From Bdellovibrionales bacterium (GTDB lineage Bacteria; Bdellovibrionota; Bdellovibrionia; Bdellovibrionales; UBA1609): a DNA stretch of 64,000 nt. Each line of letters begins with the position of its first letter. Within the stretch, counting starts at the first letter, position 1. The stretch spans positions 64,153-128,152 of the forward strand of contig OZ240230.1 of NCBI GenBank assembly GCA_965197855.1, given 5' to 3'. This document shows positions 36,109 through 39,100 of this stretch, in pieces. The position numbers and the translations under genes are program-made. The notes under the pieces were generated by a model. The model was not told where the DNA came from and did no database searches. It was given only the letters and a program-made list of their open reading frames with translations.

Positions 36109-39100
36109 TTGGCTTTAAACCTAAATCGTATTAAAATGCATGTAAAAAATACAGGGTCTTTTTTAATGTTTAGATTTATAGTTTTTAGTACGCTTTTTGT
36201 TGCATTTTTTGCACAATCTGAAGTTTTATTTCAGCCGGCTGATAATACGTTGAGTTTTGAAAAATATTTGCAGTTGCAATCTGATCCTTTAGTGGTGCCG
36301 GACCGTTATCATTTAGCTCGTATAGATCGAAATGAGATCTTTCGCTCTGCCGATTATGATATGCCTCTTGTTTTAAATTTATTTAATGATGTGGAACTTA
36401 GGGCACAGGTAAAAAATATTAAAGATGTGGATGGGGGTTCTTCTTTTATTTCAGGTTCTTTGGAAAATGGAGGACATTTTACAATCTTTCTTCATGAGAG
36501 CGGGGTGATTCGAGGGGAACTTCATTCCACCCAAGGTGTTTACACGTTAAAGTCAGAAGGAGAAGACTTTGATCAGGTTTTGATTAAGCAAGAGGATTTG
36601 TCAGAGCTTCCTCGTTGTGGGAATGATGACTACAACGTCACCTCTGCGGAGGCAGAGGTCTCTAACAATCGGGACTGGATTCCTGCTTTCGCAGGAGCGG
36701 GGCAGTTTGAGGTGCCAACCGAAATCGCTGAGCCAAGTGATGCAGGGACAACGAAAGATTCCGGGATGACGAATGGTGCGGGGATCTCAGGGAACATCAC
36801 CACAAAACAGAACTCTGTACAAACAAATGACTCTAACACTATTGATGTACTAGTAATTTATACTCAAAGGGTTGAAAACTATGAAGGGGGACCTGCACAA
36901 GTAAGGGCGACTATTGAAAATGAGATTGCTAAGATGAATCAGGTTTTGGATAATAGCGACCTTTCACATAGACAGATTAAATTAGCTGGTATGGAAAAGG
37001 TGGAGTATAGCCAAAAAGGTGATGGTTTGTATAGAGATATTAATAATTTAATAAGAACATCAGAAGATAATTATAATAATAATGATTATAGTGAGTTGGA
37101 TGAGGTGCATGAGTTGAGGGAAAAATATCAGGCAGATTTAGTGCATCTTTTTGTAAGAGATCCTATTGGGGCTTGTGGTAAAGCTTCAAAATATACTTTA
37201 TATCAAGATAAATTTATTGAGCGTGCATTTTGTCAAGGTTCTTCAAATCCTTCAGATTGTTTAGAATTAGAGCGTAGAAACGAGTGGAAAAACAGAAGAA
37301 GTTTGAGTGTTTCTGCCGTTAAATGTACAGGATCTATCGTTTTTGCTCATGAACTAGGTCATAGTTTGGGGCTTTGGCATGATCGTAGAGATTATAGATG
37401 GTATGATTATAGTATTGAAGAAGGTAATGTGCCACTTAGGCCCTATGCTTTTGGTTATGTAAGCCCTGATTTTTCACAAAAAATTTGCCAAAGAACAATT
37501 ATGGCAACAAGTGGTTGCCCTATAGAAGGAATATCAGATTATAGACATAATGAGCCATATTTTTCCAATCCGGATCTCTTTTTTCCTCCTCCTGAAGGTA
37601 GCTCTTATTATGACCCTTCATCTTTTGAAGACACTCCTATGGGTGTACCGGGGGATGAATACACTATAGATTTAGACGGTCCTGTGAATGCCTCCAGAGC
37701 TATTGATGATGTTTGGGATATTGTAGCCAGTCTTTCTGATCTTGGAACAGAAACCCCTGTTATAAGCTCTTGTAACGAAGGGGATATTCCCTCTAACGTA
37801 CTTTCTTCCAGCCTTGATGCTCAAACAGAAGTGTCTGCCAGCGGCGGCACAAAAAATATGATGATTTCTTTTTCTGTGCCGGATAACTGTTCAGGAATTT
37901 CTTTAACAGCCAGTTCTTCTAATTCTATAGTCAGCACTTCTGTTCAAAAAATAAGGGAAGGGGAGTTTCAATTATCTATTACAGCCAGTCCTAATAACTC
38001 CTCCTGCAGTACCAGAAGAGTTGAGGTGACAGTGGAACTTAGAGGAGTATCCGGAGTTTCTCCGACCAGCACTACTGTGACACAAGCCTCTAATAATGAA
38101 CTTTGCAAAGACATTTCAGGGTTGCCTGCGGATTCCACTTCTTTGGATCTTTCCGGGCAAAATGGGTCTTCATCACTTAGGCTTGCCGATTCCATGTTCT
38201 CCAGATTTACTCAGCTTGAGAGTTTAAATTTAAGTAATAACCAGTTAAGCAGTTTTCGATCTGCTGTCTTTAATGGTTTGGATCAGCTTAAAAATTTAAA
38301 TTTAAGTTATAATCAATTTACATCCCTTCCGGAGTCTTCTTTTTCATCTCTTCCAAATTTAGAATATTTAAATTTAAGTAAAAATAAAATTCAAACAATG
38401 CATGAATCTACTTTTAGTGCTGTTGAAGGCAAGGTTTATCAATTAAAAATATTGGATTTAAGTTATAATGAACTGGAAGAGTTGTCTGATTTTACTTTTT
38501 CTTATCTTGTTCGTCTGCAGTCTCTTAAGCTCAATAACAATCAAATTACAGAGTTGGATCAACTTACTTTATTTGGACCTTTTCAGTTAAAACAATTAAA
38601 TTTAGGTTATAATGAAATTGAGACTGTCCATGGATCCGCTTTTTCAGATAATTCAAAGCTGACTCATTTGTGGCTTCATGCAAATAACATTGAAAGTTTA
38701 CCGGATAGTGTTTTTTCAAATTTAACTGAACTTAGAATGCTCAGTTTATCCCGAAATGAATTGGATGAGATTCCGGATCTTTCAAATAATACAAAATTAG
38801 GATCTTTATATCTTTACTCCAACAACATTAGTGATTTGTCATCAAATCCTTTTTCAGAGCTTTCAGCTTTAAGAACTTTAAGTTTAAGCAATAATAGTAT
38901 CAGTGGTGCACTTCCAGTAGGTGTTTTTCAAAATAATTCCAATTTGGAACGTTTGCATCTTTCAAATAATAAAATTACAAGTGTGCCTTCTAATACTTTT
39001 TCAGGTCTTTCAAAGTTAAGGGCTTTAAGTTTATCTAAGAATCAACTTACAGCTTTGCCAAGTTTTTCAGGTTTATCTAATGTGGTTAATCTATGGCTTT

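What the first reader, a model, noticed from the sequence alone, without database searches (positions are those of the whole stretch)
36675..36795. GC-rich palindromic repeat inserted in frame inside the metzincin-LRR gene (RPE-like behaviour)
Seen directly: about 120 nt of the CDS is a family A repeat. It is near-identical to the intergenic copies at 13148-13217, 39586-39663 and 45153-45217. Its first 68 nt differ from the reverse complement of A1 only in a short central patch (1-nt indel). The reading frame passes through it and adds about 40 residues (DWIPAFAGAGQFEVPTEIAEPSDAGTTKDSGMTNGAGISG) between the N-terminal region and the protease domain. The antisense strand is open too. Established knowledge: in-frame survival of palindromic mobile repeats inside genes is known for Rickettsia palindromic elements. 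Inference: this is either a tolerated linker insertion or a very recent event, and it shows that the repeat family is or was mobile.
Basis: partly seen in the sequence, partly recalled or inferred. Interest (0 to 1): 0.7.

Follow-up and report, generated by a model that had tools for sequence, protein, structure and literature searches.

The report
Palindromic repeats translated inside protease gene
A secreted zinc-protease gene of a small-genome Bdellovibrio-like bacterium carries several copies of the genome's own GC-rich palindromic repeats, read in frame as a floppy linker between two protein domains; this is a clear new example of a known phenomenon, not a new kind of element.

Summary
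Window 36673-36740 is a full-length family A copy (nhmmer E=2.5e-21; 92% identical to the copy at 13148-13217). It lies in frame inside an intact 1152-aa metzincin-LRR gene.

The repeat-derived tract is wider than reported (36636-36790) and is a mosaic of at least four pieces:
- a complete CGTC-tagged REP hairpin;
- the family A copy, which is a REP half-hairpin plus a 42-45 nt module I call B;
- two decayed REP remnants.

The whole tract sits in the 75-codon linker between the prodomain (which ends in a cysteine-switch-like LPRCGN) and the catalytic domain. AlphaFold2 predicts this linker to be disordered (pLDDT about 25).

Eleven homologues from other metagenomes carry REP-derived peptides in the same linker, with different numbers, orientations and variants. 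Five of these genes (P0002, P0003, P0004, P0011, P0015) lie in higher-GC contigs whose sampled flanks lack such repeats; in four the gene is 13-18 GC points below its flanks, which suggests horizontal transfer. The closest orthologue (L007) has three short REPs here but no module B, so the family A layer is lineage-specific and younger.

In-frame REPs and RPEs are already described, so this is a new member of a known kind. Mobility is supported by differences in repeat occupancy at orthologous sites. No transposase was found.

The parts
36109..39567 (+). Metzincin (reprolysin-like M12) plus LRR gene. The longest ORF is 1152 aa; the annotated form P0001 starts at the ATG at 36136 (1143 aa).
   Evidence: One search gives the ORF. 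One search gives Pfam Reprolysin_5/3/4 and 11 LRR_8 stretches, all above the curated cut-offs. One search gives P0001 at 100% identity.
36136..36615 (+). Signal-peptide-like N-terminus and a beta-rich prodomain, up to the LPR that precedes the conserved cysteine.
   Evidence: This region is conserved in homologues. AF2 gives pLDDT of about 80-90 for P0001 residues 30-153.
36616..36840 (+). Linker of 75 codons, from the nearly invariant Cys (cysteine-switch-like LPRCGN) to the start of the catalytic domain (IDVLVIYT). It is predicted to be disordered.
   Evidence: One search gives the coordinates. One search gives pLDDT<50 for P0001 residues 161-232 with no secondary structure. One search shows linker length varies from 39 to 85 aa among homologues.
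36636..36662 (+). Complete CGTC-tagged REP with a variant stem: CGTC-ACCTCTGC-GGAG-GCAGAGGT-CTC. It is translated as VTSAEAEVS.
   Evidence: Searches find the hairpin. Searches show this stem variant occurs nowhere else in the window or loci. The orthologous L007 copy has the canonical stem ATTCCTGC, with three compensatory pair differences.
36673..36740 (+). Full-length family A copy. It consists of the 5' REP half-hairpin (36675-36696, CTGGATTCCTGCTTTCGCAGGA) plus module B (36697-36738).
   Evidence: One search gives nhmmer E=2.5e-21. Searches give the alignments. One search gives 92% identity to the copy at 13146-13216.
36742..36753 (+). Remnant of a REP 3' arm plus tag (GCAGGGACAACG, compare GCAGGAATGACG). 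The intergenic copy at 35960-36050 shows the same extension.
36757..36771 (+). Plus-orientation REP with its hairpin core deleted (GATTCC..GGGATGACG). It is translated as DSGMT.
   Evidence: Comparison with the L007 linker DWIPAYAGMTNG. This reading is an inference.
36778..36790 (+). 3' remnant of a minus-orientation REP (GCGGGGATCTCAG). It is translated as AGISG.
   Evidence: It aligns with the L007 sequence GCAGGAATCTCAGGG, the end of VIPAKAGISG.
37348..37380 (+). Zinc-binding motif HELGHSLGLWH (HExxHxxGxxH) of the catalytic domain. It is intact.
   Evidence: One search gives the translation. One search shows H405, E406, H409 and H415 are invariant in 36 homologues.
13148..13217 (-). Intergenic family A copy.
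   Evidence: (E=9e-23).
19216..19311 (-). Intergenic short REP (19216-19244) plus a family A copy (19246-19311), upstream of argS.
33894..33981 (-). Intergenic REP plus a separate module B, between convergent genes.
35960..36050 (-). Intergenic family A copy directly upstream of the metzincin gene. It is inverted relative to the copy at 39581.
39581..39663 (+). Intergenic family A copy directly downstream of the metzincin gene.
45096..45216 (.). Intergenic short REP (45096-45125, minus orientation) and a family A copy (45151-45216, plus orientation).
23974..24003 (+). Intergenic canonical CGTC REP: CGTC-ATCCCCGC-GAAG-GCGGGGAT-CCAG.
49246..49279 (-). Intergenic canonical CGTC REP: CGTC-ATTCCTGC-GCAG-GCAGGAAT-CCAG.
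16668..16709 (+). Degenerate REP that fills the 44-nt gap between convergent genes.

Best explanation
**What it is.** The segment is a stack of small palindromic repeats of the CGTC-tagged REP class, translated as part of a secreted metzincin-LRR protein.

**The repeats in this genome.**
- The genome is about 1.4 Mb with about 36% GC and is Bdellovibrionales-like.
- It carries short REPs of the form CGTC, 8-bp stem, 4-nt loop, 8-bp stem, CCAG.
- It also carries a 68-nt composite, family A, in which the tag side of the REP is replaced by a second module, B.
- These elements are almost always intergenic: 10 of 11 repeat sites, in a window that is 89% coding.

**Why this site tolerates them.** The one exception is the linker between the prodomain and the catalytic domain. 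That linker is intrinsically disordered and variable in length. It probably contains or adjoins the activation cleavage region, so extra residues there do no harm. Five of the six frames of the GC-rich element lack stop codons. Any indel that keeps the frame therefore yields a viable protein.

**History, part shown and part inferred.**
1. One or more short REPs entered the linker before the divergence of the clade containing P0001, P0018, P0002/3/15 and P0011. They have been carried as coding sequence ever since, apparently including into REP-free, higher-GC genomes.
2. REP-to-REP recombination then reshaped the linker in frame. Examples are the 72-nt difference between P0003 and P0015, and the deleted hairpins in the window.
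3. In the window lineage, after its split from L007, a 45-nt (15-codon) module B segment appeared inside the 3' arm of the resident plus-orientation REP. This produced a full family A copy.

**How step 3 happened.** I favour copying from an intergenic family A copy, by recombination or conversion using the resident REP as homology, or by nested REP-targeted insertion. No transposase is evident.

**Effect.** The peptide itself most likely has no specific function beyond spacing.
For: **The in-gene copy is a family member.**

**The gene is intact, and the repeat lies between conserved domains.**

**The linker is disordered.** pLDDT is about 25 for P0001 residues 161-232.

**The short repeats fit the published CGTC REP definition.** One search gives tag, 8-bp stem, 4-nt loop and tail. 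The definition is Table 1 of PMC3733652.

**The elements avoid coding sequence.** 10 of 11 repeat sites are intergenic at 89% coding density.

**Homologues carry REP peptides in the same linker.** P0002, 3, 4, 10, 11, 12, 15, 18, 37 and 44 do so, in both orientations and in several stem variants. More distant, high-GC homologues have 40-52 aa linkers without these peptides.

**A rough tree splits the REP-bearing proteins.** A neighbour-joining tree places them in two clades.

**The closest orthologue lacks module B.** L007 has REPs in minus, plus, minus order, with identical flanks up to GCAGGA.

**The in-gene module B resembles the window's own copies.** It is 80-84% identical to them, and 70-74% identical to copies in L004 and L007.

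**Some REP-bearing genes look transferred.** In four loci the gene is 13-18 GC points below its flanks; these loci and L012 have no REPs outside the gene.

**Orthologous sites differ in occupancy.** The window, L010 and L011 differ, and L011 has no REPs in 21.6 kb.

**No transposase turned up.** The ORFs scanned by Pfam or NCBIfam, or annotated through synteny, include none.
Against: - Only 64 kb of the source genome could be read, so the number of other in-gene copies and any distant transposase are unknown.
- The neighbour-joining tree has no support values, so one ancient gain with inversions and losses cannot be excluded in favour of several gains.
- L007 is a 2x long-read assembly with frameshift errors, so its single-base differences are unreliable.
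- Reading 36757-36790 as decayed REPs rests on one pairwise alignment.
- Horizontal transfer is inferred from GC contrast and IS flanks only.
- For P0011 (L012) the GC contrast is small: 53% for the gene against 57% for the locus.
- No expression or protein data exist.
Confidence: 0.78

Rival explanations
1. A single recent transposition put one element of about 120 nt into a previously repeat-free gene and added about 40 residues.
For: The in-gene copy is as similar to the intergenic copies (89-92%) as those are to each other. Local GC jumps to 55-57%.
Against: The orthologue L007 and homologues at about 65% identity already have short REPs at the same positions, with homologous flanks. The net length difference from L007 is 13 codons, not 40. 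The tract contains at least four separate REP-derived pieces.
Confidence: 0.07
2. The family A copy, including module B, is ancestral to the linker. L007 and the P0002/3/15 lineage lost it by deletion between the GCAGGA direct repeats that flank module B.
For: The distant homologue P0012 (L004) also has a module B in the same linker and orientation. REP-mediated in-frame deletions do occur here, as in P0003 against P0015, which differ by 72 nt.
Against: The window's in-gene module B is closer to the window's own intergenic copies (80-84%) than to the L004 in-gene copy (74%). P0012 falls in the other clade of the tree. Several independent losses would be needed.
Confidence: 0.15
3. The hairpins, or the peptide they encode, are kept by selection for a function. 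Possible functions are an mRNA structure that paces translation between the prodomain and the catalytic domain, a protease-sensitive activation linker, or a recombination site that generates linker variants.
For: REP-derived sequence persists in this linker across lineages at about 55-65% protein identity, apparently including after transfer into REP-free genomes. The REP at 36636-36662 keeps a perfect 8-bp stem through three compensatory pair differences from L007. Palindromes are still largely intact in the transferred copies.
Against: Number, orientation, position and sequence of the REPs differ between homologues, and some are decaying. Many homologues work with unrelated 40-52 aa linkers. 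REP subfamilies with covarying stems are normal in these genomes, so the variant stem may simply be another subfamily. The folding z-score of the tract is only -1.7.
Confidence: 0.1
4. The repeat is really intergenic. On this view the upstream 36109-36674 region is a separate gene or pseudogene fragment, and the true gene starts downstream.
For: In the L007 assembly the gene is called in pieces, and one piece (P0018) starts at the repeat.
Against: L007 is a 2x assembly with obvious frameshift errors, and its pieces join up across frames. In the window the ORF is continuous. The N-terminal region is a conserved prodomain fused to the catalytic domain in more than 35 full-length homologues.
Confidence: 0.02

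Closest known systems
CGTC-tagged REPs (Di Nocera et al. 2013, PMC3733652). The class includes Neisseria dRS3 and Rickettsia conorii RPE-4 and RPE-6.
   Same: - The short elements here match the published description: CGTC tag, 8-bp stem, 4-nt loop, 3-bp tail (against Table 1).
- They are mostly intergenic and often sit between convergent genes.
- Some units are intragenic and in frame.
- Stem subfamilies covary.
- No transposase is associated with them.
   Different: - The host lineage (Bdellovibrionota-like) is not among the phyla the paper lists.
- The dominant form here is a 68-nt composite, in which the tag side is replaced by module B and the CGTC tag is lost.
- Several layers are stacked in one interdomain linker, and related elements recur in that linker across homologues.
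Rickettsia palindromic elements (RPE; Ogata et al. 2000, as summarised in PMC10969869 and PMC3733652)
   Same: Palindromic repeats are inserted in frame in genes that remain functional, in a reduced genome. The insert lies in a part of the protein where it should not disturb the fold.
   Different: - The classic RPE-1-type elements are about 100-150 bp and encode a conserved peptide of their own. Here the units are 28 and 68 nt.
- No sequence relationship to RPEs was tested.
- Only one in-gene site was seen in 64 kb, whereas Rickettsia conorii has dozens genome-wide.
- The host is not a Rickettsia.
Neisseria intergenic mosaic elements (NIMEs, built from dRS3 and RS units) and E. coli BIMEs
   Same: REP units and other short modules are arranged as mosaics, and REP-bounded segments are prone to rearrangement. 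The stem ATTCCTGC..GCAGGAAT resembles the dRS3 consensus ATTCCC-N8-GGGAAT; that consensus is from my own memory and was not tested.
   Different: Those mosaics are described as intergenic. Here a mosaic is translated. Module B has no known counterpart: there were no Rfam hits and no hits in the plasmid collection.
Bacterial MITEs that fuse in frame with genes, such as ERIC and Correia elements (reviewed in PMC10969869)
   Same: They are small, non-autonomous, structured repeats that can be co-transcribed and sometimes translated.
   Different: No terminal inverted repeats matching an IS, and no target-site duplications, are visible at the family A copies (flanks).

Membership tests
CGTC-tagged REP superfamily (PMC3733652) | A conserved CGTC tetranucleotide at one end of the stem-loop | tested here: met
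   One search finds the tag on the in-gene copy at 36636, on intergenic copies at 23974, 45096 and 49275, and on many copies in L004, L007 and L010. It is not met by the family A core itself (36675-36740), where module B replaces the tag side.
CGTC-tagged REP superfamily (PMC3733652) | Stem of 8-9 bp, loop of 4-5 nt, 3-bp tail | tested here: met
   One search finds 8-bp stems, 4-nt loops and a CCA(G) tail in nearly all copies. Table 1 of the paper is quoted.
CGTC-tagged REP superfamily (PMC3733652) | Multi-copy, interspersed and predominantly intergenic, with some intragenic units | tested here: met
   There are 11 repeat sites in 64 kb. Ten are intergenic at 89% coding density, and one is in a gene.
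CGTC-tagged REP superfamily (PMC3733652) | No dedicated flanking tyrosine transposase, in contrast to GTAG REPs and their RAYT transposases | tested here: inconclusive
   None of the window ORFs scanned with Pfam or NCBIfam, or annotated through synteny with L010 and L011, is a transposase. The other 1.33 Mb of the genome could not be read.
Rickettsia palindromic elements (RPE) | In-frame insertion in a gene that stays intact | tested here: met
   The ORF is continuous, the zinc site is intact, and the domains on both sides are conserved.
Rickettsia palindromic elements (RPE) | The insert lies where it does not disturb the fold | tested here: met
   In the AF2 model the whole tract lies in the pLDDT<50 segment 161-232, which has no secondary structure.
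Rickettsia palindromic elements (RPE) | Sequence membership in one of the RPE families of the genus Rickettsia | not tested
The host is Bdellovibrionales-like, and unit sizes differ (28 and 68 nt against about 100-150 bp).
MITE | Terminal inverted repeats related to an IS, and target-site duplications | tested here: not met
   The flanks of the six family A copies show no direct duplications. The only symmetry is the internal hairpin.
Metzincin, reprolysin-like M12 (the host gene) | The HExxHxxGxxH zinc site and a Pfam reprolysin match above the curated cut-off | tested here: met
   HELGHSLGLWH is present. H405, E406, H409 and H415 are invariant. Reprolysin_5, _3 and _4 score 45.3, 40.3 and 31.7 bits against cut-offs of 27, 22.4 and 22.
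Metzincin zymogen with a cysteine switch | A prodomain cysteine that coordinates the catalytic zinc | not testable with these tools
   The LPRCGN cysteine is nearly invariant (C161) and resembles the MMP motif PRCGxPD, which I recall from memory. It lies in a low-confidence part of the model.

The most novel reading that the evidence does not exclude
The REP hairpins in this linker are not merely tolerated but maintained. The linker between prodomain and catalytic domain of this effector-like metzincin-LRR family would then be a standing 'REP cassette'. Its palindromes would be preserved by compensatory change even inside coding sequence and after horizontal transfer. They would serve either as an mRNA structure that times translation and secretion of the zymogen, or as a recombination module that generates in-frame linker variants.
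Probability: 0.1. Interest if true: 0.6.

Novelty: new member of a known kind. Interest (0 to 1): 0.4.

Why it matters
- **Wider host range.** The finding extends in-frame survival of REP/RPE-type palindromes to a reduced-genome Bdellovibrionota-like lineage.
- **Natural history of one site.** A single disordered linker has been colonised, reshaped by REP-to-REP recombination, and apparently carried through horizontal transfer into genomes that lack the repeats. Selfish palindromes can therefore become lasting raw material for interdomain linkers.
- **Possible marker of gene origin.** REP-derived peptides such as DWIPAxAGMT and VIPAKAGIx could hint at the origin of transferred genes.
- **Annotation warning.** The same repeats produce spurious ORFs. 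One example is the 129-aa 'gene' in L007, which is largely built from REPs.
- **Limits.** The finding does not reveal a new mechanism.

Tried and rejected
**Locating the source genome and the family elsewhere**
- Exact look-ups of the window protein and of P0001 for their encoding contig found nothing on record.
- The genome-contig scan for the protein found only two distant gammaproteobacterial relatives. The source genome is not in that collection.
- Cluster look-ups gave no names or accessions.
- A metagenome-contig scan for module B (AGGTGCCAACCGAAANNNCTGAG) found no matches.

**Looking for other proteins that carry the element**
- HMMER search of the 45-aa linker peptide against 1.84 billion representatives gave four weak hits. 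The three I inspected are unrelated low-complexity or tandem-repeat proteins.
- A word-index search with the open frames of the element joined end to end gave one marginal hit and did not even recover P0001. It is therefore uninformative about other in-gene copies.

**Looking for a known identity for the element**
- Rfam at gathering threshold and at E<=1 found nothing for the repeat.
- The plasmid collection gave no match.
- Literature searches for REP-derived peptide strings returned only irrelevant papers.
- RNAalifold supported the REP hairpin but not a consensus module B hairpin. Some copies show compensatory GCGAT/ATCGC against GCAGT/ACTGC, others do not.

**The host protein**
- The PDB sequence search for the prodomain plus catalytic region gave no hit.

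**Readings considered and rejected**
- A pseudogene or split gene.
- A chance match.
- A terminator function. The in-gene hairpin is not followed by a T-run (sequence).
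Full report
**1. Observation**

The repeat finder links it to copies at 13148-13217, 19248-19311, 35960-36050, 39583-39663 and 45148-45217.

A profile built from the six window copies scores the in-gene copy (36673-36740) at E=2.5e-21. That lies within the range of the intergenic copies. The in-gene copy was itself one of the six sequences used to build the profile, so this E-value is not fully independent.

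The independent evidence is pairwise identity over the core:
- 92% to the copy at 13146
- 89% to the copies at 19244 and 45151
- 78% to the copy at 35974
- 75% to the copy at 39582

The only block of difference from the 13148 copy is a central patch with a 1-nt indel. That indel shifts the reading frame inside the element from ...WIPAFAGAKRLRCQ... to ...EVPTEIAEPS.... Local GC is 55-57% in a 36% GC gene. Five of the six frames of the element are free of stop codons, so the open antisense frame carries no information.

**2. The host gene is real and intact**

- ORF 36109-39567 is 1152 aa. The database form P0001 starts at 36136.
- It matches Reprolysin_5/3/4 and about 11 LRR_8 units, all above the curated cut-offs.
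- It has more than 35 full-length homologues with the same architecture: N-terminal prodomain, linker, catalytic domain, beta domain, LRR.
- The zinc site HELGHSLGLWH is intact and its histidines are invariant.
- The prodomain ends in a nearly invariant Cys in LPRCGN. This resembles a cysteine switch; that is an inference from the MMP motif, which I recall from memory.

The repeat therefore lies inside the gene, not between two genes.

**3. Position in the protein**

The linker runs from that Cys to the IDVLVIYT strand that opens the catalytic domain. It is 75 codons long (36616-36840).

An AlphaFold2 model built with 36 homologues has mean pLDDT 80.9. The segment P0001 161-232 falls below 50, with 10-residue block means of 24-36, and has no secondary structure. 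The domains on either side are confident. The whole repeat tract lies in this segment.

**4. What the repeats are**

The window and related loci contain short elements of the form CGTC, 8-bp stem, 4-nt loop, 8-bp stem, CCAG. An example is CGTC-ATTCCTGC-GAAA-GCAGGAAT-CCAG. The stems occur in covarying variants: ATTCCTGC, ATCCCCGC, ATCCCTGC, ACCCCTGT and ATTCCGGA.

This is the published definition of CGTC-tagged REPs (tag, 8-9 bp stem, 4-5 nt loop, 3-bp tail). That class includes Neisseria dRS3 and Rickettsia conorii RPE-4 and RPE-6. It is reported to occur inside genes in several species and to lack a dedicated transposase (PMC3733652).

Family A is a composite. It consists of the tail-side half of such a REP plus a module of about 42 nt, which I call B (GCGAGGCGGTTGAGGTGCCAACCGAAATCGCTGAGCCAAG). 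Module B also occurs detached from the hairpin, at 33894-33981 and in L007. Neither part matches any Rfam family.

**5. Anatomy of the in-gene tract**

| Coordinates | Piece |
|---|---|
| 36636-36662 | Complete CGTC REP with a unique stem variant (ACCTCTGC/GCAGAGGT) |
| 36673-36740 | Family A copy |
| 36742-36753 | Remnant of a REP 3' arm plus tag |
| 36757-36771 | Plus-orientation REP with its hairpin deleted |
| 36778-36790 | 3' remnant of a minus-orientation REP |

About 155 nt of the linker is REP-derived, and it is a mosaic.

**6. Comparative evidence**

*The organism.* ArgRS from the window is 85% identical to a 'Bdellovibrionales bacterium' MAG, and related genomes are 1.1-1.4 Mb.

*The closest orthologue.* L007 shares 78-89% DNA identity across the PBP, metzincin and downstream genes. 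Its linker has three short REPs, in minus, plus, minus order, and no module B. Homology to the window runs uninterrupted up to GCAGGA, in the 3' arm of the plus-orientation REP, and resumes at ATCTCAGGG. The window has 45 nt (15 codons) of module B at that point. Its linker is 13 codons longer overall.

*Other homologues.* REP-derived peptides in the same linker take different forms:

| Homologue(s) | REP-derived linker content |
|---|---|
| P0002, P0003 | DWIPA(S/F)(A/S)GMT, twice |
| P0015 | The same motif once. It differs from P0003 by exactly the 72-nt spacing of the two copies, as expected from REP-to-REP recombination. |
| P0004 | VIPAKAGIQ and VIPVKAGIS (opposite orientation) |
| P0010, P0037, P0044 | A DQVRNDV variant |
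| P0011 | One REP in each orientation |
| P0012 | A REP plus a module B |

More distant, high-GC homologues have unrelated linkers of 40-52 aa. A rough neighbour-joining tree places the REP-bearing proteins in two clades. A REP-free clade is sister to one of them.

*Independent origin of the window's module B.* It is closer to the window's own intergenic copies (80-84%) than to the in-gene copy of L004 (74%).

**7. REP-bearing genes in REP-free genomes**

| Locus | Gene GC | Flank GC |
|---|---|---|
| L001 | 38% | 51% |
| L008 | 38% | 55% |
| L009 | 40% | 56% |
| L002 | 50% | 68% |

- In these loci the only REPs are those inside the gene.
- L008 and L009 have IS110, IS66 or IS30-type genes beside the metzincin gene.
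- L012 (57% GC) has four metzincin-LRR genes in the sampled locus. Only P0011 carries decayed REPs, and the locus has no others. Its GC contrast is small: 53% for the gene.
- By contrast, gene and flanks have the same GC in the window, L004 and L007, and REPs are common there.

The simplest reading is that REPs entered the linker in low-GC, REP-rich donors and then travelled with the gene. Orthologues in repeat-free genomes do carry short-REP peptides, apparently as imported fossils, and none has module B.

**8. Mobility**

Orthologous intergenic sites differ between relatives that are about 80% identical:
- Downstream of the rhomboid gene, the window has a family A copy. L010 has a separate REP and a separate module B. 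L011 has nothing.
- L010 has a REP between the TPR and PQQ genes, which abut in the window.
- L011 has no REPs in 21.6 kb.

None of the window ORFs scanned by Pfam or NCBIfam, or annotated through synteny, is a transposase.

In the window, 10 of 11 repeat sites are intergenic although 89% of the sequence is coding. If sites were independent and insertion were random, one or fewer in coding sequence would have a probability of about 2e-9 (my own arithmetic). In-gene copies are therefore normally purged, and this linker is an exception.

**9. Mechanism**

- *Shown:* an in-frame REP mosaic lies in a disordered interdomain linker of an intact gene, and its layers differ in age.
- *Inferred:* the mosaic is tolerated because the linker has no fold constraint and is probably removed or trimmed on zymogen activation.
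- *Inferred:* frame-preserving indels arise by recombination between REPs.
- *Inferred:* module B arrived either by conversion from an intergenic family A copy, using the resident REP as homology, or by nested insertion.
- *Rivals:* see the rival explanations, each with its own test.
- *Functional reading:* selection on the hairpin or the peptide has a little support. That support is long retention and a perfect variant stem with three compensatory differences from L007. However, covarying stem subfamilies are normal for these REPs, and the folding z-score of the tract is only -1.7.

**10. Comparison and novelty**

In-frame survival of palindromic repeats is established for Rickettsia RPEs and for GTAG and CGTC REPs in several species, including clusters that encode 43-82 residues (PMC3733652, PMC10969869).

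The following points were not reported in the papers consulted:
- the Bdellovibrionota-like host lineage;
- the REP-plus-B composite;
- the recurrent, layered use of one linker across a protein family;
- its apparent persistence through horizontal transfer.

I rate this as a new member of a known kind, of moderate interest.

Noticed in passing
window 45223-45662; also 48542-48646 and L010 14919-15190: There are 2.2 tandem copies (99% identical) of a 202-nt non-coding unit abutting tRNA-Ser(GGA). Each unit begins with the same ~35 nt, which include about 17 nt matching the 3' end of the tRNA, as an att site would. The unit has ~14-nt terminal inverted repeats and folds very stably as RNA on the tRNA strand (-69.7 kcal/mol, z=-6.5). 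A diverged inverted copy sits next to tRNA-Ala, and an ~80% copy in L010 also abuts a tRNA-like end. The unit has no Rfam family. It may be a small tRNA-targeting mobile or structured element.
   Followed up: partly
window 33894-39663 compared with L007 1-9000: The metzincin gene is bracketed by inverted family A copies (35960-36050 in minus orientation, 39581-39663 in plus). It has swapped order with the PBP1A gene relative to L007. L007 has the order large protein, metzincin, AAA_14, PBP, DUF8196. The window has the order large protein, PBP, metzincin, DUF8196. Every junction carries REPs, which suggests REP-mediated rearrangement.
   Followed up: partly
L001, L002, L008, L009 (metzincin-LRR genes): The homologous genes are 13-18 GC points below their flanks. 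In L008 and L009 they sit among IS110, IS66, IS3 or IS30-type genes. This suggests horizontal transfer of this effector-like gene, with its embedded REPs, into higher-GC genomes.
   Followed up: partly
window 36636-36662 compared with L007 2016-2045: An in-gene REP keeps a perfect 8-bp stem but differs from its orthologue by three compensatory base-pair changes plus two loop changes, while the flanks are conserved. The stem variant ACCTCTGC is unique in all the sequence held. It arose either by in-place compensatory evolution or by replacement with another REP subfamily.
   Followed up: partly
L007 8560-8949: A called 129-aa 'gene' between the PBP and DUF8196 genes is largely built from REP and module B copies. 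It is a spurious ORF of the kind these GC-rich, stop-poor repeats generate.
   Followed up: no
L011 (whole 21.6-kb locus): A relative at about 79% DNA identity, with 41% GC, has essentially no REPs at sites where the window and L010 have them. The repeat family has therefore expanded or been purged in a lineage-specific way.
   Followed up: partly
window 4630-4768 and 13015-13147: A second repeat of about 140 nt occurs in two copies (85-93% identical), each downstream of a gene. It contains a long AT-rich palindrome (TATAAGTGAATCAAAC...GTTTGATTCACTTATA). The copy at 13015 directly adjoins the family A copy at 13148.
   Followed up: no
L012 3311-18678: Four metzincin-LRR genes are clustered within the 19.8-kb sampled locus of one high-GC contig. 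Their products correspond in length to P0023, P0020, P0011 and P0013; P0014 is on the same 34-kb contig. Only P0011 has a REP-derived linker.
   Followed up: partly
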